A stretch of DNA of 64,000 nucleotides from Candidatus Woesearchaeota archaeon (GTDB lineage: Archaea; Nanobdellota; Nanobdellia; Woesearchaeales; SKIA01): positions 32,001 through 96,000 of the forward strand of contig JBJKRI010000006.1 in assembly GCA_046704725.1 (NCBI GenBank). The letters are read 5' to 3'. A program made the translations under genes and the position numbers. The notes beneath the pieces were generated by a model. The model did no database searches and was not told the origin of the DNA. It saw only the letters and a list, made by a program, of their open reading frames with translations. Positions 27,977-37,442 of this stretch are shown one piece after another. Each line of letters opens with the position of its first letter. Position 1 is the first letter of the stretch.

Positions 27977-28102
27977 ATTGTATTCCCCCAAGGCGCGGCC
28001 TGCGGCCACGCCAGAGAAGGGCATTCCGGAATGCTATAAATATCCTGCGTCGGCAACCAGAGGTTCAGAGAAACTATAAAGCGGAGCGAGCCCCGAGCAG
28101 GC

Positions 28103-30418
28103 ATGGCCACTGTCCTGCGACGGCTCCGTGATTGGTTCTTGCACGCGAACACGCTCCAGAAGGCGTTCTTCATCCTCGCGACCGCGGCGGTGCTCATCGT
28201 CATCGCCGAGACGGTCTTCTTCCTCGTGATCGGCTACCAGAGCCTGCAGACCGGGCTGACGATATACCTCTCTCCGGACGCGCAGACGTTGAGCGTCGCG
28301 CACGGGCAGAACACGACGCTCTCGTTCAGCCTCGGAGCGCGCGACGCGCCCTTGTGCGTGGCGACCTGCGACTGGCGCGTGACGGACCTGACGACACGAA
28401 CGACAGTCAGGCACGGGACGCTCACGCCAAGAAGCAACCCGCAGACCCTCGGCACGACGATCGGGGCGCGCGGTAACAGCACCGGGACCGACGCGTACCA
28501 GATCGTCGTGGAGTGCCGCAACACGCAGGCGCTGCGCTGCCAACGCAAGAACGAGACGCAGGACGCGTCCGCGACGGTGCTCGTCACCACCACCTACAGC
28601 CCAGCGGAGAGAGCGGCCGCGGACGCCTACGCAATGAAAGCTCCCGGAGCGTTCGCGAACATGGCGAAGGACGCCGGAGCCTTGCTGCCCGTCACACACG
28701 TGAACGACCCGCGGGCGGCCACGGTCCGCGCCGACGCGGAGCGCCAGGCAGCCATGATCAGCGCATTGGCGGAGAACATCACCGCCGCCGTGCGCGCAGA
28801 CGATCCCGTCACCGCAGAACGGCTCCTCACGGAAGGGACTTCCGTGGACGCGGCGAGCGCGTACGAAAGACTGGTGGTCGAGGAGCGCAACGCGACAAGG
28901 CCCTATGACGAACTGCTCGCCCGCAACGACACCATCGCCGGACTGCTCGCGGCGGGCGACGCACCGACAGGGGCGCTCGCAACGGCACGCACGGCCTGGG
29001 GAGACTTCCCCGACGCGTCGCCCGCGAGCTCGGCGGAAGCGTTCTCCGGAGCGCTGCGCGCCGTCGACGCCGCGAACCAGACACCGAGCATCCTGCTCGC
29101 CGACCAGGGGAGCGCGCTCCTGCGCGGGGATCTCCTCGCGGCGTGCACGCTCAAGAGCACGACGTGTCCCGCTTCGATGCAGAACGTCACCGACGCGGCC
29201 CAGGCCGCGCAGAGGCTGCGCAGCGTCTGCGACGCCCTCTCATCGCTCGGCGCCACGTACTCCGCAGCTCAAGCGGCTTTCGCCCGACAGCTCGTCCCCA
29301 ACGCCACGCTCCAAGAAGCGCTCAACGCGACGGGCGCGCAAGCCCTTCGGCAATCGGCGGGATGGAACGCGACGCAAGCGGCGATCATACGGCAAGCGAG
29401 GAGAGGCGTTCTCTCCACGACGAACGACACCGTCCGTCTCGCCGTGGAGCTCGCTCCCAGCGACAACGCCACGGCGTTCCTCGCCGACTCGTGCCCCGTA
29501 CCGGACACGCACCTCCCGCCGCCGCTCACGCCGACGCTGCAGCCCGCCACGCCGATCCCTGTGTCGTTCACCGCACCAACGCTTCCTAGCGCACAATGCT
29601 GCGGCGTCGACGCGTGCGGGATATGCGCCGCATCAACGACGTACCCCGTCCTGCTCGTGCACGGGCACGCGTTCAGCGAGGACGCCGCCCCGGAGTACAG
29701 CATGGAGGCGTTCACGCCCTTCGCGCTGGCCATGCAGGGGACCGGACGTTTGTACGTGGGCAACGTGTTCCCCAGCGACACGCCCACCAGCGGACCGTAC
29801 AGCACCATCCCGGGCGGCGTGTCCGCCACGACGACCTACTACTACGACAGCTACGCCGAACAGGGCAAGACCGTGCTCGTCGCGCAGAAGACCGAGAACA
29901 TCGAGACGTACGCAATCCGGCTCAAGCAAGCCATCGACAACCTCAAGGCGGAGACGGGACAACCGAAGGTCGTGCTCGTCGCGCACAGCATGGGCGGATT
30001 GGTGGCGCGCAGCTACCTCGACATCTTCGGCTCGGATAGCGTCGCGGGACTCGTCATGATCGGGACGCCGAACCACGGCATCAACGGGACGGCGGCGCAG
30101 GTCTGTCCGATCGTCGGTGGGCAGGCGGAGTGCAGCGAGATGCTGCAGGGCAGCCTGTTCCTGCGCAAGCTCAACAGCGACCCGCAGCCCCACATACCGA
30201 TGCTCACCGTCACCGGCACGGGCTGCGACGGCAGGGCGTACGACGGGGTGGTCGAGGCGTCGAGCGTCTCCCTGCCCGGCGTCCCCGATAGCGTCGTGCA
30301 CGGCGCGTGCCACGGCACGCACCTCCTGCACACCGCGCTCATCGACCCGTCGCAGCATCCAGAGGTGCTGCATGTAGTGGAATCCTTCGTGGAGAACGTA
30401 TCGCATGCGCAGCGCTGA
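28103..30418 (+). CDS. Membrane-anchored protein with C-terminal alpha/beta hydrolase (lipase-like)
   Basis: N-terminal TM; LLVHGH, AHSMGG nucleophile elbow, GTPNHG, DGVV, LLH. Confidence 0.9.
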   Translation: MATVLRRLRDWFLHANTLQKAFFILATAAVLIVIAETVFFLVIGYQSLQTGLTIYLSPDAQTLSVAHGQNTTLSFSLGARDAPLCVATCDWRVTDLTTRTTVRHGTLTPRSNPQTLGTTIGARGNSTGTDAYQIVVECRNTQALRCQRKNETQDASATVLVTTTYSPAERAAADAYAMKAPGAFANMAKDAGALLPVTHVNDPRAATVRADAERQAAMISALAENITAAVRADDPVTAERLLTEGTSVDAASAYERLVVEERNATRPYDELLARNDTIAGLLAAGDAPTGALATARTAWGDFPDASPASSAEAFSGALRAVDAANQTPSILLADQGSALLRGDLLAACTLKSTTCPASMQNVTDAAQAAQRLRSVCDALSSLGATYSAAQAAFARQLVPNATLQEALNATGAQALRQSAGWNATQAAIIRQARRGVLSTTNDTVRLAVELAPSDNATAFLADSCPVPDTHLPPPLTPTLQPATPIPVSFTAPTLPSAQCCGVDACGICAASTTYPVLLVHGHAFSEDAAPEYSMEAFTPFALAMQGTGRLYVGNVFPSDTPTSGPYSTIPGGVSATTTYYYDSYAEQGKTVLVAQKTENIETYAIRLKQAIDNLKAETGQPKVVLVAHSMGGLVARSYLDIFGSDSVAGLVMIGTPNHGINGTAAQVCPIVGGQAECSEMLQGSLFLRKLNSDPQPHIPMLTVTGTGCDGRAYDGVVEASSVSLPGVPDSVVHGACHGTHLLHTALIDPSQHPEVLHVVESFVENVSHAQR

Positions 30419-30434
30419 AACGGGTGCCGACGGC

Positions 30435-31163
30435 ATGCGTATCGACTACTGCGAGGAGTACCCCACGAGCGAGAACCTCTCGAGAGCCGCGGGACTGCCC
30501 CAAGGGACTGTCGTGTTCCTCGCCGCGCAGACGGAGCGGGAGTTCCGGTCCGCGGCGGAGGTATTGCGCAACCACGCGCCGGGCGCGGTGGCGGGCTGGT
30601 GGCCGATCCTGCCCGAGAGCTACTGGGTCTCTTCTTGGAGCGGACCAGAAGAACTGGAAGCGCTCGCGCGGGCGCTCGATTGGATGCCGCGCACGCACAT
30701 CCTCATCGACGCGGAACTGCCCTTCGTGCGTCCGAGACGGTTCATCATCGGATTGCCGCAGCAGCGTCGCGCGCGAAAGGCATTGCGAAAGCTCCACGAC
30801 GCGTCCAATCGGCACGACACCGTCTTCGCGACCTACCCGGTCATGCCGGGCTGGGCCAAGCGTCTGTTCGGCGTGCCGACTCCAGGGACCCCGTTGTTCA
30901 TGCACTACACGAGCATGATGCCCGCGTGGTTGGCACGAGTCTCCGAGCGTTCATTGCGTCGCAGGAAGAGGAAGGATGCCATCGTCATCGGGCTTGGCAC
31001 ACTCTCTCCGGGCGTGTTCGGCAAAGAACCGACGCTCCCGCCGGAGCGATTGTCACACGACCTCGATTTCTGCCGGGGGATCGGCTGTCGCCGCGTCGTG
31101 CTCTACCGGCTCGGCGGGCTCACGAGCGCGCACCGCGCGGTCCTCCGAACGAAAACCACTTAA
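30435..31163 (+). CDS. Hypothetical protein (possible TIM-barrel)
   Basis: YWVS, LIDAE, IGLGT, LYRLGGL beta/alpha alternation; follows the hydrolase. Confidence 0.7.
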   Translation: MRIDYCEEYPTSENLSRAAGLPQGTVVFLAAQTEREFRSAAEVLRNHAPGAVAGWWPILPESYWVSSWSGPEELEALARALDWMPRTHILIDAELPFVRPRRFIIGLPQQRRARKALRKLHDASNRHDTVFATYPVMPGWAKRLFGVPTPGTPLFMHYTSMMPAWLARVSERSLRRRKRKDAIVIGLGTLSPGVFGKEPTLPPERLSHDLDFCRGIGCRRVVLYRLGGLTSAHRAVLRTKTT

Positions 31164-31185
31164 CCGACCGGTGTTGTGGAAGCGC

Positions 31186-31401
31186 ATGCAGGGGTTGATT
31201 GAGGAGCTGGACCGGCTGCCCAAGGCGACGCAGGACCACATCCTCTTGTGGCTGTCGGCAGAACCCCTCACGGATCCGGAGTACAAGGAATTCAAGAAGA
31301 TGAGACGGGCGATGACCCCCGCGCTCTACCGCAAGCTCGACAGCGTGCTCAGCGCCCGGCTCGTAAGGGCACGAAGCGGAAGCCGGAATGCTTCTCGATG
31401 A
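31186..31401 (+). CDS. Small hypothetical protein
   Basis: Helical, protein-like 71 aa; TTAA box upstream; overlaps the pcm 3' end. Confidence 0.5.
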   Translation: MQGLIEELDRLPKATQDHILLWLSAEPLTDPEYKEFKKMRRAMTPALYRKLDSVLSARLVRARSGSRNASR

Positions 31402-31969
31402 GGATATCGTCTTCCGATCGTTTCTCGACACGCCAGACCGCGTCCTGTACGGGTATGACCATGACCCCGCCCGTGCGGAGCTGCCCGACGAGTTCCTGGG
31501 GAAGCTCGTTCGCAGCGGCGCTCACGAGGATACGATGGTAGGGCGCTCCCGCCGGATAGCCCAGCACGCCGTCGGCGGGGATGATGCGCGCATCACCCTC
31601 ATCATAGGTCTCGAGGTTCGCGCGCCCGAACTCGACGAGAGAGGGTTCGCGCTCCACGCCGACCACGCCTCCCTCCGGACCGACGATGTCGCTGAGCAGC
31701 GCCGTCGTCCATCCGCTCCCGCTACCCACGTCGAGCACGTGCTCTCCGGGCAACGGCGCGAGGAGTTCGAGCATGATCGCGACGGTGTGCGGCTGGCTGA
31801 TGGTCTGTCCGGCGCCGATGGGAAGCGGCTGGTCGAGATACGCGAAGCGCTTGTCCTCTGGCCGCACGAAGCCCGCGCGGTCGACCCTCCGGAACGCGTT
31901 GACGATGCGTTCGGTCCGGAGCGATCCTTCCGCGACGAGTCCTTGCACGAGCGTCTCGTTCGTCTCCAT
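31349..31969 (-). CDS. pcm: Protein-L-isoaspartate O-methyltransferase
   Basis: AYLDQPLPIG..QTISQPH, LDVGSGSGW, APYHRILVSAA, FRFVPL. Confidence 0.95.
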   Translation of the reverse strand: METNETLVQGLVAEGSLRTERIVNAFRRVDRAGFVRPEDKRFAYLDQPLPIGAGQTISQPHTVAIMLELLAPLPGEHVLDVGSGSGWTTALLSDIVGPEGGVVGVEREPSLVEFGRANLETYDEGDARIIPADGVLGYPAGAPYHRILVSAAANELPQELVGQLRTGGVMVIPVQDAVWRVEKRSEDDILIEKHSGFRFVPLRAGR

Positions 31970-32048
31970 GCTCCGGGACATGTCTTCGTGGCATAAAAAT
32001 GGACGGGGAAATGCAAAATGCCTTAAACCAGGGGCTCGGCGGGATTGT

Positions 32049-32669
32049 ATGGAACTCGCTGACTGGCTGTCGCCGACCGTGCTCGAAGCCGATTTTCTCG
32101 AGCGCGAGCGGGAGCGATATGCTGCGGCTGAGCCGTTCCCCCACGCGAACATCCAACAAGTCCTGCGCGACGATCGACTGCATGAGCTCGAGGACGCCCT
32201 CGCGACACAGGAGTTCGTCCACAAGGAGTCCGACCTGTTCAGCTTCGCGCAGACCGACGACCTGGGAGGGATGGAGCAGCCGGTGCTCAAGGAGTTCGTA
32301 TCCTTCCTCAACAGCGAGGAGTTCCGCTACTGGATTGCGCAGCTCACAGGCGTGTCCACGACGCCGGGGAGGCTCGATTGCTTCGGGGCGATCTACCAGG
32401 ACACGGACTACCTATTGTGCCACGACGACCGACTCGCCGACAGGAAGGTCGCGTTCATCATCTATCTCACGACGCTCGAGGACGAGGAAGGCGGGGCGCT
32501 CGCATTGTTCACCGACAACGACGGTCATCCGGGCACGCGCGTGACGGCGTACCCGCCCGTGCGCAACAGCATGTCATTGTTCACGGTGTCGGACAAGAGC
32601 TGGCACGAGGTCGAGGAGGTCACAGAAGAGACCTATCGCGTGACCGTCGGGGGGTGGCTTTGTGGATAG
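32049..32669 (+). CDS. 2OG-Fe(II) oxygenase resembling the OGFOD1/Tpa1 catalytic N-terminal domain
   Basis: PFPH, SDLFSFAQTDDL, LLCHDD..RKVAFIIYL, GGALAL, SWHEVEEV, RVTVGGW (HxD..H..R intact). Confidence 0.9.
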   Translation: MELADWLSPTVLEADFLERERERYAAAEPFPHANIQQVLRDDRLHELEDALATQEFVHKESDLFSFAQTDDLGGMEQPVLKEFVSFLNSEEFRYWIAQLTGVSTTPGRLDCFGAIYQDTDYLLCHDDRLADRKVAFIIYLTTLEDEEGGALALFTDNDGHPGTRVTAYPPVRNSMSLFTVSDKSWHEVEEVTEETYRVTVGGWLCG

Positions 32670-33210
32670 CATCAACCCTGCGTATCGCGGACAAGAAAAA
32701 GCCGTGGGGGAGCAGCTCTCGCAGGGCTACGTGCTCTTGGACGATGCGCTCTTGCGGGAAGCGCGGGACTCTCTGAATGAAGCGCTCGAGGATGCGCAGT
32801 GGACTGCGCAGTACTCGCCCGACCTGCATCGCTACGAGGAGACGGACCCATCTGTCGCCAATGACATCGTCGAGCAATTGCTCGCGTACTTCTCGCGGGC
32901 GATCGGCGAGAAAAACGTGCTCGACGTCAAGGTACGCCGATATTCTGTGGGCAGCTACACCTTGCAGCACGACGAGCAAAAACCGGCGGGCCTCCACGTG
33001 ACGCTGTTCTTGTGCGACGGCTGGGAAGCGGGGTATCGCGGGGAGCACACCTTCGTGCCTGAGAAGGGCGATCCCTTGTTGGTGCTGCCCAAGGACGGCT
33101 CTGTGATCGCGGTGAGTGTGCCCGAGGGCACGCGCCGCTTCGTCAAGCGCGTCACGCACCTCGCAGGGGAGGATGAATACGTCTCCGTCGAGTTCGTGTT
33201 GACGGACTGA
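32662..33210 (+). CDS. Inactive oxygenase-fold protein resembling the OGFOD1/Ofd1 C-terminal domain
   Basis: RRYSVGSYTLQHD, WEAGYRG, RRFVKRVTHLA; distal His absent; GTG overlaps the upstream stop. Confidence 0.8.
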   Translation: MDSINPAYRGQEKAVGEQLSQGYVLLDDALLREARDSLNEALEDAQWTAQYSPDLHRYEETDPSVANDIVEQLLAYFSRAIGEKNVLDVKVRRYSVGSYTLQHDEQKPAGLHVTLFLCDGWEAGYRGEHTFVPEKGDPLLVLPKDGSVIAVSVPEGTRRFVKRVTHLAGEDEYVSVEFVLTD

Positions 33211-33248
33211 CCGCTGCGTTTATAAACAGGATATTTTCCCCAACAGGC

Positions 33249-33665
33249 ATGGATGCACTGCGCGCTGCTAAATCACCCATCGCGGGGACCGGCTGCTTCG
33301 CTAACAAGTCCTTCAAGAAAGGACAGGTCGTTGGGGAGTACACCGGAGAGATCATCGACGACGACGAGGCCGACAGCCGCTACGGCGACGAGGAGATGAC
33401 CTACCTATTCGACATCGGTCGCGGACGCTACATCGACGGGGACACGGACGACAATCCCGTCAAGTACATCAACCACTCGTGCGACCCGAACTGCGAGTCG
33501 GAGCAGGACGGCAAGCGCATCTTCATCGTCGCGCTGCGCGATATCAAGAAGGGAGAGGAGCTCACCTACGACTACCACCTCCAGGTCGAGGAGGACGACG
33601 AGGACCCCTACACCTGCCGCTGCGGCGCCAGGGAGTGCCGGGGCACGATGCGCGCGGCGAGCTAG
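33249..33665 (+). CDS. SET-domain protein-lysine methyltransferase with post-SET
   Basis: SPIAGTGCFA, EYTGE, KYINHSCDPN, EELTYDY, CRCGARECRG. Confidence 0.95.
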   Translation: MDALRAAKSPIAGTGCFANKSFKKGQVVGEYTGEIIDDDEADSRYGDEEMTYLFDIGRGRYIDGDTDDNPVKYINHSCDPNCESEQDGKRIFIVALRDIKKGEELTYDYHLQVEEDDEDPYTCRCGARECRGTMRAAS

Positions 33666-33755
33666 CCGTACACGCAGACAGCCACGCGAACAGTTACCTC
33701 TCTACAGTGGGTATTAATGCAATAGTATTTAAGTCAGAACCGTTTCGCGGGCACC

Positions 33756-34532
33756 ATGCGCTGGACGGATGAGTACCTCAGAGAGCTTGTCAAGCGAAAG
33801 GAAGAGAACGAGAACGCGAGCGACATCGCGCGTGCGCTCCAGAAGATATCCGGTGAGCATTGCAGCGTGTCCTCGGTGAACTCCCGTTATTCTGTGCTTC
33901 GTCACAAGGAACACGAGCTGTACCAGAAGCTGCTCAGCACGGTCCAGGAGTCGCAATACCAGGATCCGCTCGCGCAGCGGCTCGCGCAATTCGAACGTCA
34001 ACAACTGCTGCCGTTCCTAGAGGAGCGCAACCAGATCATCAAAGGAGAGCTCAGGCGTCAGGCAGAAGCGCTACGCAACATCGACACGTACGAGCGTTTC
34101 CGAGGCATGAGCTTCGAGGATCTCCAAAAGCTCGAAGACAACGTCCGCCAAGAGGCGATCACGCTCCTGAGCAACGGAAAGAGCGTACAGGACGTCCAGC
34201 ATCTGGACCTCATCCTCACGACCGAGGACGAAGGGAGAATGGATGATATCGCCGTCACGCTCCCATTGTTCGTCCTCGACGGCAGGGTGGTGGAGCGCGG
34301 AGTACGCTTCGCGCTCAACGCGAGCGTGGTGCATGCTGTCCGGAAAGCAGGGTATGGCGGCCAAGCCACTCGAGAAGGGGAGCTCACGAAATACAGGTTC
34401 ACCGGAGGCTCGTTGGATCCCGGCGATTTCGCCACGCAGGTCACGTCCGCGCTGCACCGCGTGTACAAGCCGATGCAAGGAGTCCACGTACACATCGAAT
34501 CACCGAACGTCATCCGCCTGCACGGAAAATGA
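33756..34532 (+). CDS. Hypothetical protein with N-terminal GcrA/Myb-like HTH
   Basis: MRWTDE..L....NASDIARAL....SVSSVNSRY. Confidence 0.7.
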   Translation: MRWTDEYLRELVKRKEENENASDIARALQKISGEHCSVSSVNSRYSVLRHKEHELYQKLLSTVQESQYQDPLAQRLAQFERQQLLPFLEERNQIIKGELRRQAEALRNIDTYERFRGMSFEDLQKLEDNVRQEAITLLSNGKSVQDVQHLDLILTTEDEGRMDDIAVTLPLFVLDGRVVERGVRFALNASVVHAVRKAGYGGQATREGELTKYRFTGGSLDPGDFATQVTSALHRVYKPMQGVHVHIESPNVIRLHGK

Positions 34533-36277
34533 GACCCGAAGAGCTGAGCGTCACGGAATTCATGGAATATTGCCTCCGAGAGGGCATTCCTCCCATAGAG
34601 ACGCTCTCGAGGGATACCCTCAGTTCGAAAACGACGCCCTCGACCGAGACGGCTGAGGACGCACCCACGATCAAAGAACTTGTCGTACGCACGCTCGACG
34701 AGGTACGTACGTCAGGGAAATCAATCACGCTGGACACGCTGTGCGACCTCATCGCGGTCGATATGCAGAAAGCCCCTGCCCCGGACAGCAACACACCCCT
34801 CAAGGGACTGGTGGCAGACGCGCTCTACGAATACGCGAGCGAAGCGAAGACTGCAGGCCTTCACGAACGGACGGCGAAGAGGAACCAATTGCAGAACCCG
34901 GTGGCCGCCGAGGAGCTGGAGGGACTACTCCACGTGCGTATCGACGACCTGGGAGCGCGTCGTATCGTCGGTGAGCTTTCTGCACAAGTCATCCAGGAGG
35001 CATACCCCATCCATGACGGGAAGTTCCAGGACGAGGACGGGAACAGCTACAACATCGAAGGAGCCATCAATTGGGACCGCGCAGGCAAGCGCACGGCGCG
35101 CGAGCGGTTGGTCGCCTATGCGGAACAAGACGTGCTCGCGCCTCTGCAGGAGGAACACGCCCAGAGGATCGCTGAACTCGAGAAGCAGCGAGAGAAGCTC
35201 AAGGAACGAGCGTCGATCCCCCGGAAGAACAATCATACGATAATCTTGAGCGGCGAGCGGGGACCGCTGATGACCCTCGACCATCGATTCGTGAAAGGCT
35301 TCTTGTACGAGCAGAACACCGAGGGCATAACCATCGACCCGTCCATCAACGAGCGACGAATCGAGGTGGAATGCGAGACCGAAACGGATCGCCAGAGGTT
35401 CCTCGCTATGTGGGAGGAGTTCTCGGGCAGGAACAATTTCTGCCAGGCGATCTCTATGTCCTCACGTACCGAAGGGCATGGGAATCGACGCAAACGCCTG
35501 CTGAACAATGTACAGCTGATCGAGGAACAGCTCAAGATATTCCGTACCGAGACGATCGACATCGAATATTGCGGGCTCGAAGGACCCCACTTCGCGAGCT
35601 ATCTCTCGTTGCGTGATGCCGCGGCAAGACGGGGGATCGGCATCCACACAACGGCCGTGGAGTATGATCGTCGACTCGCGAACATCATGGAGAGCATCGT
35701 CGAGACGAATCCGGATGGACTTTTCAGCGACGTCGACGTGCTCTGGGGGAACATAGACAAATACCTGCTCGCCGACCGTCTCTTGCCAGAATCGCTCCAT
35801 CTCTCGGGGCGGGCAGGCGACTACACCGTCATGAGCGGGAACGACAGCATCCGGCTACAGAGGCTCTATGACCTGGCGGACGGCGAGAGCCTCAGCACAC
35901 AGCACGCGAGCGCGAGCTTCGGCGTCTCGCCGGCGTTCGTGGAGATGGTGCGTGAACGGTCGACCAGACCGTTCGACATTCTCTTCCTCGATTACATCGG
36001 GCCGTTCTCGAGGAAACGCCTGCAAACGCTGGAGACCGTGATGCAACGTCACGTCAACGACAGGGCTGTTATCGGCGCGACCTACAATGCCGCGAAAGCG
36101 AAGAACCCGCTCCAGATCGACGAGTGGTCCGCCCGCATGCTCGAGCACGTCTGGCAACTGGCGGAGAAGAACGAACTCGAGATACAGAATATCGACTCCC
36201 ACGAATATCAGGACGGATGGGCTCCGATGTTCTTCCTCGTCTATTCCCTCCGCAGGAAGAAGGGCGATCAGTCCTGA
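34529..36277 (+). CDS. Multidomain protein with C-terminal class I SAM-methyltransferase-like fold
   Basis: YCGLEG, AVEYD, LWGNID, FDILFLDYIGP; ATGA overlap with the upstream gene. Confidence 0.7.
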   Translation: MRPEELSVTEFMEYCLREGIPPIETLSRDTLSSKTTPSTETAEDAPTIKELVVRTLDEVRTSGKSITLDTLCDLIAVDMQKAPAPDSNTPLKGLVADALYEYASEAKTAGLHERTAKRNQLQNPVAAEELEGLLHVRIDDLGARRIVGELSAQVIQEAYPIHDGKFQDEDGNSYNIEGAINWDRAGKRTARERLVAYAEQDVLAPLQEEHAQRIAELEKQREKLKERASIPRKNNHTIILSGERGPLMTLDHRFVKGFLYEQNTEGITIDPSINERRIEVECETETDRQRFLAMWEEFSGRNNFCQAISMSSRTEGHGNRRKRLLNNVQLIEEQLKIFRTETIDIEYCGLEGPHFASYLSLRDAAARRGIGIHTTAVEYDRRLANIMESIVETNPDGLFSDVDVLWGNIDKYLLADRLLPESLHLSGRAGDYTVMSGNDSIRLQRLYDLADGESLSTQHASASFGVSPAFVEMVRERSTRPFDILFLDYIGPFSRKRLQTLETVMQRHVNDRAVIGATYNAAKAKNPLQIDEWSARMLEHVWQLAEKNELEIQNIDSHEYQDGWAPMFFLVYSLRRKKGDQS

Positions 36278-36744
36278 TCGTACGTGCCGCGGGTCACGTT
36301 CGCGATGAACGCTGCCACAGAACGCTTCGGGATGCCTCGCAGCTCCCGGTCGGAATAGATGTGCGAGTAATCGGGTTTGCTCGCATCGTAGGGGGTTCCC
36401 TGTTCATAGAGCTCGATAATCCGCTCACGCACCCAATCAGGATGGTCGCGGGCCGGATGGTTGCCGCTACGCGGTCGATGGTTCTTGTGCACTCCCGCAT
36501 CGGCGAGGCCTTCCTCCTCCAGGAGATACGCAAGACGCTTCCGACCTTCCGGCGAAAGCCGTTCGGGAAGCACGCTCACCACGCCTGAGCTCCCGCCGTA
36601 CGCTGCGAGGGCCTGATCCGTTTTGCGGGTGCCCACCGCTCGCTCGCCACGGAGCTGGGCCTTCGTGATCCCGAGCGACGAGGTGATCGCGCTGTCGCTG
36701 CGTCCTTCAAGGTCCATCCGCATGACGTCTTGCCACCGTGCCAT
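36268..36744 (-). CDS. Protein with two HTH-like segments
   Basis: EGRSDSAITSSLGITKAQL and RIIELYEQG..KRSVAAFIANVTRGTY; TATA ~25 nt upstream of ATG 36744. Confidence 0.7.
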   Translation of the reverse strand: MARWQDVMRMDLEGRSDSAITSSLGITKAQLRGERAVGTRKTDQALAAYGGSSGVVSVLPERLSPEGRKRLAYLLEEEGLADAGVHKNHRPRSGNHPARDHPDWVRERIIELYEQGTPYDASKPDYSHIYSDRELRGIPKRSVAAFIANVTRGTYDQD

Positions 36745-36794
36745 CCAATAGGTGAGGAGATATCCATATATAAGTACTACTGTCAAATAGGTAC

Positions 36795-37442
36795 TTATTT
36801 GCGCTTCCTTGTGGCCGCAGGCAACCACGCCCGGCACAAGCGCAGCAATTCATCCGTGTCCGAGGCGATCATGGACGGACGCGCTTCCAAGAGCAGTTCG
36901 GCGTCCTGCATCCCCCAGGTGACCGCGCAGCTCGCGATATGGGCGCGGCGCGCGGCATGGATGTCACGCGTCTCATCGCAGACATAGAGCATCCGGTCGG
37001 GACGCAGCTTCCTGTCCCTGAGAAGGCGCTTGAACGTGCGGTTCTTGGTGAAGAAGCCCCCGTGCAGGACCTCGACGAAGAGCGAGCGCAAGCGTGCCTT
37101 CTTGAGGACGCGTTCGATGAGCTCGACGTGGTTGCTGCTCACGACCGCGAGGTCAGCGCGCTTTTCAAGGCGACGCAGCGCCGCTGGAATGCCTTTGTGG
37201 AATGCGACATGCGACTCGTTATCGCCGAAAGCAGCACGCCATTCACTCAGCAGGCCGGGCGCGCGCCAGAACGGGACGCCCAGCTCCTTGAGGAGCTTTC
37301 GCGTGGAGAGCGTGCGGACAGCCTTGGCCTCGGCCATGCCGCGATAGCCGTGGCGCTTGGCCACGTCGTTGAGCGCGTCGATGAGGGCGTCGACGCTGTC
37401 GGCGAGGGTGCCGTCGAAGTCGAAGACGATCAATGGACGCAT
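36795..37442 (-). CDS. HAD-family hydrolase (phosphoglycolate phosphatase-like)
   Basis: VFDFDGTLADS, SSN, K, DETRD, VTWG. Confidence 0.93.
   Translation of the reverse strand: MRPLIVFDFDGTLADSVDALIDALNDVAKRHGYRGMAEAKAVRTLSTRKLLKELGVPFWRAPGLLSEWRAAFGDNESHVAFHKGIPAALRRLEKRADLAVVSSNHVELIERVLKKARLRSLFVEVLHGGFFTKNRTFKRLLRDRKLRPDRMLYVCDETRDIHAARRAHIASCAVTWGMQDAELLLEARPSMIASDTDELLRLCRAWLPAATRKRK

What the first reader, a model, noticed from the sequence alone, without database searches (positions are those of the whole stretch)
32049..33210. Split archaeal homolog of the eukaryotic ribosomal prolyl hydroxylase OGFOD1/Tpa1
Seen: gene 1 has LLCHDD-x4-RKVAFIIYL, SWHEVEEV and RVTVGGW; coupled gene 2 has GSYTLQHD, WEAGYRG and RRFVK without the full Fe triad. 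Established (from recalled sequences): OGFOD1/Tpa1/Ofd1 has this order, a catalytic domain (LLCHDD..RRIAFILYL, SFHQV.EV, RLSISGW) then an inactive domain (GHYTLIHD, WEPEYGG, LKFVK), and hydroxylates the conserved Pro of uS12 using O2. Inference: an O2-dependent ribosome-modifying or O2-sensing heterodimer in a DPANN archaeon, bearing on the origin of the eukaryotic two-domain enzyme.
Basis: partly seen in the sequence, partly recalled or inferred. Interest (0 to 1): 0.86.

Follow-up and report, generated by a model that had tools for sequence, protein, structure and literature searches.

The report
Two-gene archaeal OGFOD1-type prolyl hydroxylase
A tiny symbiotic-type archaeon encodes, as two overlapping genes, both halves of the oxygen-dependent enzyme that in eukaryotes hydroxylates a proline of ribosomal protein uS12, an enzyme family that the literature describes as found only in eukaryotes.

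Summary
Gene 1 (32049-32669) is an intact Fe(II)/2-oxoglutarate oxygenase whose best solved relative is human OGFOD1 (E 9e-26). Gene 2 (32662-33210, 8-nt overlap) matches only the non-catalytic C-terminal domain of OGFOD1 (E 2.7e-9; fold TM 0.84-0.86) and lacks the distal iron-binding His.

The split is real. Of 71 related loci, 67 carry both genes as separate ORFs and none is fused; two more genomes keep the genes on different contigs. The pair occurs in 75 of 401 sampled genomes of the window's phylum (Woesearchaeota/Pacearchaeota-type DPANN) and in 5 of 301 Asgard genomes.

A complex prediction supports a heterodimer (0.85 against 0.08 for the best control). Nine of ten residues of the proposed OGFOD1 uS12-binding groove are identical. 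The genome's own uS12 carries the QPNSA loop. Pair-bearing genomes nearly always have superoxide dismutase (72 of 75, against 158 of 326 without the pair).

uS12 hydroxylation is inferred from homology, not shown. In the tree the eukaryotic fused enzymes separate from all archaeal pairs (99/93). The root, and so whether fusion or fission came first, is unresolved.

Verdict: a new split archaeal variant of a known enzyme, contradicting "only in eukaryotes".

The parts
32049..32669 (+). Gene 1: catalytic Fe(II)/2-oxoglutarate oxygenase subunit (206 aa), homologous to the N-terminal domain of OGFOD1/Tpa1
   Evidence: Pfam 2OG-FeII_Oxy_4 E 3.4e-23, 82 bits against a cut-off of 27. Best PDB match is human OGFOD1 4nhx, chain positions 79-259, E 9e-26; Tpa1 gives 1.5e-11.
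32421..32429 (+). Codons for His125-Asp126-Asp127 (the HxD part of the iron triad)
   Evidence: Read from the sequence. They align with OGFOD1 His155/Asp157. H125 and D127 are present in 64 of 64 family members.
32604..32606 (+). Codon for His186, the distal iron ligand
   Evidence: His in 63 of 64 rows; the other row has an X.
32637..32639 (+). Codon for Arg197, the 2-oxoglutarate-binding Arg of the RxxxxGW motif
   Evidence: Arg in 63 of 64 rows; the other row has a gap.
32649..32657 (+). G-rich stretch GGGGGGTGG, 5-13 nt upstream of the gene 2 start; a possible Shine-Dalgarno-like site inside the end of gene 1
   Evidence: Seen in the sequence only. Its role is inference.
32662..32669 (+). 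8-nt overlap GTGGATAG: gene 2 start codon GTG and gene 1 stop codon TAG
   Evidence: In 49 of 67 related loci the nearest possible gene 2 start also overlaps the end of gene 1, commonly by 1, 4, 8 or 11 nt.
32662..33210 (+). Gene 2: non-catalytic double-stranded beta-helix subunit (182 aa), homologous to the C-terminal domain (Ofd1_CTDD) of OGFOD1/Tpa1/Ofd1
   Evidence: Its only PDB sequence hit is OGFOD1, chain positions 288-368 and 458-542, E 2.7e-9. AF2 model pLDDT 96.2. The top nine Foldseek hits are OGFOD1 (TMq 0.80-0.86), Tpa1 (0.77-0.78) and the Ofd1 C-terminal domain 6e0t (0.75). The column of the distal His holds no His in 41 archaeal and 9 eukaryotic rows.

Best explanation
The two translationally coupled genes encode the two subunits of a heterodimeric OGFOD1/Tpa1-type Fe(II)/2-oxoglutarate-dependent prolyl hydroxylase.

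Gene 1 supplies the active site: His125, Asp127 and His186 for iron, and Arg197 for 2-oxoglutarate. Gene 2 is a catalytically dead paralogous beta-helix. It packs against gene 1 through the same hairpin and minor-sheet elements that join the N- and C-terminal domains in the single-chain eukaryotic enzyme. It probably helps to bind or position the substrate.

The most likely substrate is the proline of the QPNSA loop of the organism's own ribosomal protein uS12. That proline would be hydroxylated with O2 and so would tune decoding and termination.

Shown here: homology of both halves, intact catalytic residues, the conserved split, and its distribution. Predicted only: the heterodimer. Inferred from homology: the substrate and the physiological role.
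For: Homology of both halves:
- Gene 1 matches OGFOD1 at E 9e-26 and gene 2 matches only the OGFOD1 C-terminal domain at E 2.7e-9.
- A profile of five gene 2 proteins found 941 representatives at E<=1e-3. Of the best 150, 146 are stand-alone proteins of 106-205 aa. The other 4 are long fused proteins, of which 2 carry eukaryote names (a fish, a fungus), one is annotated by IMG as Tpa1-like and one is unnamed, at E 1e-23 to 2.5e-31.
- The archaeal gene 1 and gene 2 profiles align end to end with the N- and C-terminal halves of three of the nine fused proteins tested (P0149, P0117, P0135). In the other six the C-terminal match is broken into pieces.
- The gene 2 fold matches OGFOD1, Tpa1 and the Ofd1 C-terminal domain best.

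Catalytic and substrate-groove residues:
- Of the 64 family rows, all keep H125 and D127 and 63 keep H186 and R197.
- All ten residues that Horita et al. 2015 (PMC4396695, section 12 read) list as lining the OGFOD1 substrate groove can be mapped through the alignment. Nine are identical in gene 1 and one is Tyr to Phe.
- These include the four whose mutation lowered uS12 hydroxylation: L95, Y96, L152 and R162 correspond to L63, F64, L122 and R132, conserved in 64, 62, 64 and 64 of 64 rows.

Heterodimer:
- ipSAE 0.85 (three runs 0.85-0.87) against 0.08 for the best of three controls. This mark was reached by 58 of 80 solved complexes and 2 of 110 mismatched pairs. The runs agree in 100% of contacts and the partner's pLDDT is at least 90.
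- The interface residues of gene 1 (60-65, 119-126, 185-192) correspond to the beta4-beta5 hairpin and minor-sheet strands that the paper describes at the OGFOD1 domain interface.

Split and distribution:
- Of 71 loci, 67 have both genes as separate ORFs and 63 of those lie within -47 to +43 nt of each other. Gene 2 is in the +1 frame in 38 loci, the +2 frame in 26 and the same frame in 3. None is fused.
- Two further genomes keep the genes on different contigs.

Substrate and oxygen:
- The genome's own uS12 has the ...VEAKQPNSAMRK... loop.
- The genome has Fe/Mn superoxide dismutase. Among 401 phylum genomes, 72 of 75 with the pair have SOD, against 158 of 326 without it.
Against: - No experiment or expression data exists. 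No sequencing run could be listed.
- The substrate is inferred only from homology.
- No ribosomal or translation gene recurs next to the pair. The recurrent neighbours are RadA, nucleoside diphosphate kinase and an RPA-like protein, probably plain synteny.
- The window's gene 2 is below Pfam's own cut-off.
- The complex prediction may pass by likeness to the solved single-chain structures, and my own alignments were used, so the calibration holds only roughly.
- The genome has no haem-copper oxidase, cytochrome bd or rubrerythrin match. O2 exposure is therefore implied only by SOD.
- The SOD association is inflated by relatedness. Within the two largest families it is only a trend: 12 of 13 against 10 of 16, p 0.09, and 17 of 17 against 19 of 25, p 0.07.
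- Tpa1 and Ofd1 have had other roles proposed (DNA repair, Sre1 regulation), so family membership does not fix one substrate.
Confidence: 0.6

Rival explanations
1. The pair is the same heterodimeric oxygenase but acts on a different substrate. Candidates are another translation protein (bacterial PPHD hydroxylates EF-Tu), another basic protein, or a nucleic acid or small molecule.
For: No genomic link to uS12 or any ribosomal gene was found in 71 loci. Related prolyl hydroxylases use varied substrates: the PDB hits include PPHD with EF-Tu and PolD. Tpa1 was once proposed as a DNA demethylase, which was later disputed (PMC6746446, abstract seen in the listing).
Against: Nine of ten proposed OGFOD1 groove residues are identical and strongly conserved. 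[quoted passage not shown] The target loop of uS12 is present unchanged. Gene 1 gave no PHD2 or PPHD hit at E<=1.
Confidence: 0.25
2. The pair is mainly an oxygen sensor or regulator, with hydroxylation secondary. As proposed for fission yeast Ofd1, the oxygenase subunit would control what the non-catalytic subunit binds, depending on O2.
For: The two halves are separate polypeptides, so they could associate or dissociate. Ofd1 is described as an oxygen sensor in the abstract of PMC2847220 (listing). The organism does not seem to respire O2 yet carries SOD.
Against: No partner or target gene recurs beside the pair. The reviews read say the ribosomal oxygenases keep working in severe hypoxia (PMC4682802, passage). 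The predicted interface is tight and confident. Nothing here tests regulation.
Confidence: 0.1
3. It is really one gene: a fused OGFOD1-like protein broken by a sequencing error or recent frameshift at the T/G runs near 32649-32661, or read through by programmed frameshifting.
For: The junction lies beside a run of six G and a run of three T. Removing one T would join the frames.
Against: The split is found in 67 of 71 related loci, with many different spacings and all three relative frames. No open frame at or near fused length (about 390 aa or more) turned up in 401 + 301 genomes. The longest frames at any match were 353 aa (the window's own gene 1 frame, which runs on upstream) and 303 aa (a 42-position partial match), and the gene 2 frames are about 170-300 aa. 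Two genomes have the genes on different contigs. The conserved Trp of GGW requires the gene 1 frame up to 32657.
Confidence: 0.02

Closest known systems
Human OGFOD1 (uS12/RPS23 Pro62 trans-3-hydroxylase; PDB 4nhx, 4nhy)
   Same: It is the best solved relative of both genes (E 9e-26 and 2.7e-9). It has the same order: catalytic beta-helix, then inactive beta-helix. It shares the iron triad and the 2-oxoglutarate Arg. Nine of ten proposed substrate-groove residues are identical. The predicted inter-subunit contacts use the same hairpin and minor-sheet elements.
   Different: OGFOD1 is one chain of 542 residues with a 31-residue proline-rich linker and a disordered acidic insert in the C-terminal domain (PMC4396695, passages). 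Here there are two proteins of 206 and 182 residues, with no linker and no acidic insert. Activity has not been tested.
S. cerevisiae Tpa1 and S. pombe Ofd1 (uS12 prolyl 3,4-dihydroxylases; PDB 3kt1, 3mgu, 4nhk, 6e0t)
   Same: They belong to the same subfamily. Gene 1 matches Tpa1 at E 1.5e-11. The gene 2 model matches Tpa1 at TMq 0.77-0.78 and the isolated Ofd1 C-terminal domain at 0.75.
   Different: The yeast proteins are single chains with long linkers and dimerisation inserts, and they have the partners Ett1 and Nro1. None of these was looked for or seen here.
Bacterial and animal single-domain prolyl 4-hydroxylases (P. putida PPHD acting on EF-Tu; PHD2/EGLN1)
   Same: Same superfamily and fold, and the same HxD...H chemistry. 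They appear among the lower fold hits of the gene 2 model.
   Different: They have no second beta-helix partner and use a long flexible beta2-beta3 finger loop (PMC4396695, section 12). Gene 1 gave no sequence hit to them at E<=1.
YcfD/RoxA, MINA53 and NO66 (JmjC-type ribosomal oxygenases)
   Same: They are O2-dependent hydroxylases of ribosomal proteins and are known in prokaryotes (passages of PMC4682802 and PMC4396695).
   Different: They are a different subfamily (JmjC), modify different residues (Arg, His) and act on large-subunit proteins. No homology signal to them was seen here.

Membership tests
OGFOD1/Tpa1/Ofd1 subfamily (uS12 prolyl hydroxylases) | Catalytic double-stranded beta-helix domain with an HxD...H iron triad and a 2-oxoglutarate-binding Arg, closest to OGFOD1 rather than to other prolyl hydroxylases | tested here: met
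   Pfam 2OG-FeII_Oxy_4 at 82 bits. OGFOD1 E 9e-26 and Tpa1 1.5e-11; the next family (PolD) is at 6.8e-7, and no PHD2 or PPHD hit appears at E<=1. H125, D127, H186 and R197 are present in 64, 64, 63 and 63 of 64 rows.
OGFOD1/Tpa1/Ofd1 subfamily (uS12 prolyl hydroxylases) | A second, non-catalytic beta-helix of the Ofd1_CTDD type (Pfam PF10637) lacking the full iron triad | tested here: met
   The window copy alone is below the Pfam cut-off (20.8 against 27 bits). However, 59 of 64 family members match at E<=1e-3, best 3.5e-18. The only PDB hit is the OGFOD1 C-terminal domain. The family profile retrieves the C-terminal domains of long fused proteins, two of them named as eukaryotic, at E down to 2.5e-31. 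The fold is closest to OGFOD1, Tpa1 and the Ofd1 C-terminal domain. No distal His in 41 + 9 rows.
OGFOD1/Tpa1/Ofd1 subfamily (uS12 prolyl hydroxylases) | Both domains on one polypeptide, joined by a linker | tested here: not met
   There are two ORFs with an 8-nt overlap in different frames. The split holds in 67 of 71 loci, with 0 fused. No open frame at or near fused length (about 390 aa or more) in 401 + 301 genomes; the longest at any match was 353 aa, the window's own gene 1 frame running on upstream.
OGFOD1/Tpa1/Ofd1 subfamily (uS12 prolyl hydroxylases) | Tight packing of the two beta-helices through the beta4-beta5 hairpin and the minor sheets | tested here: inconclusive
   Prediction only: ipSAE 0.85 against 0.08 for the best control. 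The mark was reached by 58 of 80 solved and 2 of 110 mismatched pairs. The runs agree 100% and the partner's pLDDT is at least 90. The contact residues map to the elements named in PMC4396695. The pass may reflect likeness to the solved single-chain structures.
OGFOD1/Tpa1/Ofd1 subfamily (uS12 prolyl hydroxylases) | Residues of the proposed uS12-binding groove (OGFOD1 K91, L95, Y96, Q100, D140, L152, D156, L159, R162, W236) | tested here: met
   Mapped through the alignment; chain index = residue number + 20, and all ten letters agree. They correspond to K59, L63, F64, Q68, D110, L122, D126, L129, R132 and W203. Nine are identical and one is Tyr to Phe. Conservation is 57, 64, 62, 64 (of which Q 62), 60, 64, 64, 47, 64 and 63 of 64 rows for the window's residue (Q68 is Q in 62 rows).
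OGFOD1/Tpa1/Ofd1 subfamily (uS12 prolyl hydroxylases) | The substrate uS12 with the target proline loop is present in the same organism | tested here: met
   There is one uS12 gene in the genome (PF00164, E 2e-39). Its translation contains ...VEAKQPNSAMRK.... That the hydroxylated Pro62 of human uS12 lies in this motif is recalled; it comes from no call.
OGFOD1/Tpa1/Ofd1 subfamily (uS12 prolyl hydroxylases) | Catalyses 3- or 3,4-hydroxylation of the uS12 proline | not testable with these tools
   This needs enzyme assays or mass spectrometry.
Single-domain prokaryotic prolyl 4-hydroxylases (PPHD/PHD type) | Stand-alone catalytic domain without a paralogous partner, with closest similarity to PHD2 or PPHD | tested here: not met
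   A conserved partner gene is present. Gene 1 gave no PHD2 or PPHD sequence hit at E<=1.
NCBIfam NF041706 YhhC (cyclophane peptide 2OG oxygenase) | Score above the curated cut-off of 150 bits | tested here: not met
   31.7 bits.

The most novel reading that the evidence does not exclude
The archaeal two-gene form is the ancestral state, after duplication but before fusion, of the eukaryotic ribosomal prolyl hydroxylase. On this reading, hydroxylation of the decoding-centre proline of uS12 arose in O2-exposed archaea. Eukaryotes took over the pair, by descent or by early transfer from a DPANN-like or Asgard archaeon, and fused it into OGFOD1. In today's non-respiring DPANN cells the pair would couple translation fidelity to ambient oxygen.
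Probability: 0.25. Interest if true: 0.85.

Novelty: new variant of a known kind. Interest (0 to 1): 0.64.

Why it matters
The structural paper on OGFOD1 states that the OGFOD1 subfamily is "found only in eukaryotes" and that prokaryotic prolyl hydroxylases are single-domain (PMC4396695, Discussion passage). A 2015 review says protein hydroxylation by these oxygenases is common in eukaryotes and many prokaryotes "but not archaea" (PMC4543633, passage).

Here both halves of the enzyme are found as a conserved gene pair in about a fifth of sampled genomes of a DPANN phylum and in a few Asgard genomes. This has four consequences:

- It gives a natural split version for testing what the inactive domain does.
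- It makes the origin of ribosome hydroxylation testable, in particular whether fusion or fission came first.
- It predicts a hydroxyproline in the decoding centre of some archaeal ribosomes.
- It marks these tiny, non-respiring archaea as organisms that meet and use O2.

Some caution is needed. Automatic pipelines already label some gene 1 homologues "prolyl 3-hydroxylase / Tpa1-like". An earlier report of this scan found the same family in another genome.

Tried and rejected
- **Frameshift or assembly error:** rejected by the conserved split.
- **Word-indexed search with gene 2 alone:** it found only the protein itself. The full HMMER profile search was needed.
- **Single-protein genome search:** it undercounted the family, finding 5 of 41 relatives. 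The profile search gave 75 of 401.
- **Functional hint from neighbours:** none. The recurrent neighbours are RadA (19 loci), NDK (16), an RPA-like protein (12), a membrane hydrolase (11), uracil-DNA glycosylase (9), a TrmB-like protein (7) and PCNA (6). These names come from my reading of the example sequences and were not tested. The window's own neighbours, PCMT and SET, do not recur.
- **Bacterial members:** the two loci with bacterial labels are probably mislabelled DPANN genomes. L037/G416 gives the same hit as G244, which is in the window's order. L052 is nearly identical to a Nanoarchaeota row.
- **Rooting by the paralogous domain:** the N-terminal half was unresolved. In the C-terminal half the fused rows were a basal grade. 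No direction can be read.
- **Asgard as sister of eukaryotes:** not seen in the tree, but not rejected (p-AU 0.091). The group was named after the tree had been seen.
- **Expression:** no run was listed, neither RNA nor DNA holder.
- **Literature:** OGFOD1+archaea gave 12 papers, none on archaeal homologues by title or abstract. Tpa1+Asgard gave 1, irrelevant, where TPA1 is a transporter code. Ofd1_CTDD gave 2. OGFOD1+prokaryotes+homologue gave 16. DPANN+prolyl hydroxylase gave 0. uS12+hydroxylation+archaeal gave 7, none relevant in what I read. Asgard+2-oxoglutarate+prolyl+hydroxylase gave 2, irrelevant. PMC3964080 (Loenarz 2014) is not held. Supplements were not seen.
Full report
**What is there.** Gene 1 is 32049-32669 (ATG, 206 aa) and gene 2 is 32662-33210 (GTG, 182 aa). 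They overlap by 8 nt (GTGGATAG), and gene 2 is in the +1 frame. A G-rich stretch lies 5-13 nt before the GTG. All quoted motifs are present. Upstream, on the other strand, is a protein-isoaspartate methyltransferase gene. Downstream is a SET-domain gene preceded by its own TTTATAAA box, so the pair looks like a two-gene unit.

**Identity of the two products.** Gene 1 matches Pfam 2OG-FeII_Oxy_4 (E 3.4e-23). Among all PDB chains it is closest to human OGFOD1 (E 9e-26, chain positions 79-259) and then to yeast Tpa1 (1.5e-11). The next family is at 6.8e-7, and no PHD2 or PPHD chain appears at E<=1.

Gene 2 has a single PDB hit, the C-terminal half of OGFOD1 (E 2.7e-9). Its own Pfam match to Ofd1_CTDD is sub-threshold (20.8 against 27 bits), but 59 of 64 family members match at E<=1e-3. 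A profile of five gene 2 proteins, scored against 1.84 billion representatives, found 941 at E<=1e-3 (603 at 1e-10). Of the best 150, 146 are stand-alone proteins of 106-205 aa. The other four are long proteins: a fish OGFOD1 (mis-assembled), a fungal protein, an IMG "Tpa1-like" protein and one unnamed.

The archaeal profiles align end to end with the two halves of three of the nine fused proteins tested; in the other six the C-terminal match is broken into pieces. An AlphaFold model of gene 2 (pLDDT 96.2) is closest to OGFOD1 (TMq 0.80-0.86), Tpa1 (0.77-0.78) and the isolated Ofd1 C-terminal domain (0.75).

Gene 1 keeps the iron triad and the 2-oxoglutarate Arg in 63-64 of 64 rows. In gene 2 the distal His column holds no His in 41 archaeal and 9 fused rows.

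**The split is real and old.**
- Four relatives found by genome search all have the same two overlapping ORFs.
- A scan of one genome per prokaryote species gave 71 loci. Four of them are the same DNA as those four relatives.
- Of the 71, 67 have gene 2 downstream on the same strand in a separate ORF. Two end at a contig edge. For the other two, the genomes carry gene 2 on another contig.
- Of the 67, 63 are within -47 to +43 nt. In 49 the nearest start overlaps gene 1. The relative frame is +1 in 38, +2 in 26 and 0 in 3. None is fused.
- One locus (L054) has a broken gene 2.

**Who has it.** G001, of the same genus, is a record titled Candidatus Woesearchaeota. The genome is 1.18 Mb and 99.7% complete.

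With the 64-row gene 2 profile, 75 of 401 genomes of the phylum (58 of 281 genera) have the pair. No match lies in an open frame at or near fused length: the longest was 353 aa, the window's own gene 1 frame running on upstream. In the phylum of the Heimdallarchaeota loci, 5 of 301 genomes have it. The 401 include three unpublished genomes (G261, G373, G407), all without the pair.

The two "bacterial" labels are probably wrong. Several "Methanosarcinales" labels probably are too. For example, L048 is the 0.77-Mb genome G031, which belongs to the window's order.

**How it probably works.** The complex prediction gave ipSAE 0.85 against 0.08 for the best control. The mark was reached by 58 of 80 solved and 2 of 110 mismatched pairs. 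The runs agree 100% and the partner's pLDDT is at least 90. The contacts on gene 1 (60-65, 119-126, 185-192) correspond to the beta4-beta5 hairpin and minor-sheet strands that Horita et al. describe at the OGFOD1 domain interface. On gene 2 the contacts are its conserved YTL and FVKxVxH motifs. The pass may owe something to the solved single-chain structures.

The ten residues proposed to line the OGFOD1 substrate groove map to K59, L63, F64, Q68, D110, L122, D126, L129, R132 and W203. Nine are identical and most are nearly invariant. The genome's own uS12 has the QPNSA loop. I therefore take uS12 prolyl hydroxylation as the most likely activity. It is inferred, not shown.

**Oxygen.** The genome has Fe/Mn SOD but no match to COX1, cytochrome bd or rubrerythrin. 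Across the same 401 genomes, 72 of 75 with the pair have SOD, against 158 of 326 without it (155 of 323 without the unpublished three). Fisher's p of 2e-16 is overstated by relatedness. Within the two largest families the trend is the same but weak.

**Origin.** I built a careful ML tree of concatenated halves: 64 archaeal pairs plus 9 fused proteins. Left out were L046, L054, L056 and L069 (cut or broken), P0011 (mis-assembled) and P0153-P0155 (cluster mates of P0117). The tree separates fused from archaeal rows (99/93). It places two Nanoarchaeales rows next to that branch. The four Asgard-type rows form one clade (99/97), nested with DPANN rows.

Forcing Asgard together with the fused rows costs 25.3 log-likelihood units (p-AU 0.091), so that grouping is not rejected. 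Rooting with the paralogous domain (41 of the 64 pairs plus 9 fused) did not place the root. Fusion or fission as the first event remains open.

**Known or new.** Passages read say the subfamily is "found only in eukaryotes" (PMC4396695) and that such protein hydroxylation is not found in archaea (PMC4543633). My searches found no paper on archaeal homologues; supplements were closed. Pipelines already name some gene 1 homologues "prolyl 3-hydroxylase" or "Tpa1-like". An earlier report of this scan (e1-2792776) describes the same family in another genome.

**Verdict.** This is a new, split archaeal variant of a known enzyme family. Its identity is solid and its function is inferred.

Noticed in passing
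window 33249-33665 (+), with TTTATAAA at 33219-33226: A 138-aa SET-domain protein (Pfam SET, E 2e-27) lies directly downstream of the pair, with its own TATA-like box about 22 nt before the ATG. It is a eukaryote-type protein lysine methyltransferase in a 1.18-Mb archaeon. Together with the PCMT gene upstream, three protein-modifying enzymes sit side by side here. This neighbourhood does not recur in the related loci.
   Followed up: partly
window 33756-34532 and 34529-36277 (+): Two overlapping ORFs of 258 and 582 aa have no Pfam match at E<=1e-3.
   Followed up: no
window 28103-30418 (+): A 771-aa protein has an N-terminal hydrophobic segment, a long Ala/Thr-rich region and a C-terminal alpha/beta-hydrolase (lipase/PGAP1-like) domain. 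It is possibly a surface or secreted hydrolase.
   Followed up: no
window 32662-32703: The public gene call for gene 2 (168 aa) starts at the GTG at 32704. It therefore omits 14 residues that hold the family-conserved N-terminal INPxY-type motif.
   Followed up: partly
L037 (record titled Acidobacteriota), L052 (titled bacterium), L048 and about a dozen loci titled uncultured Methanosarcinales: The record titles disagree with placement. L037's genome gives the same hit as G244, which lies in the window's order. L048 is the 0.77-Mb single-contig genome G031 of the same order. L052 is nearly identical to a Nanoarchaeota row. These labels look wrong.
   Followed up: partly
L072:3612-4205 and L074:3612-4208: In two Nanoarchaeales-type genomes, gene 2 is unusually close to gene 1 (gene 1 profile E 1.5e-12 and 4.5e-11). 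In the paralogue tree it sits on the branch between the two domain families. It may be a less diverged copy of the dead domain.
   Followed up: no
L017 and L024 (genomes G716, G717): Gene 1 and gene 2 lie on different contigs in these two genomes, so the pair is not always linked.
   Followed up: partly
window 28000-37000: G+C is 59-68% in this stretch of a 1.18-Mb DPANN-type genome.
   Followed up: no
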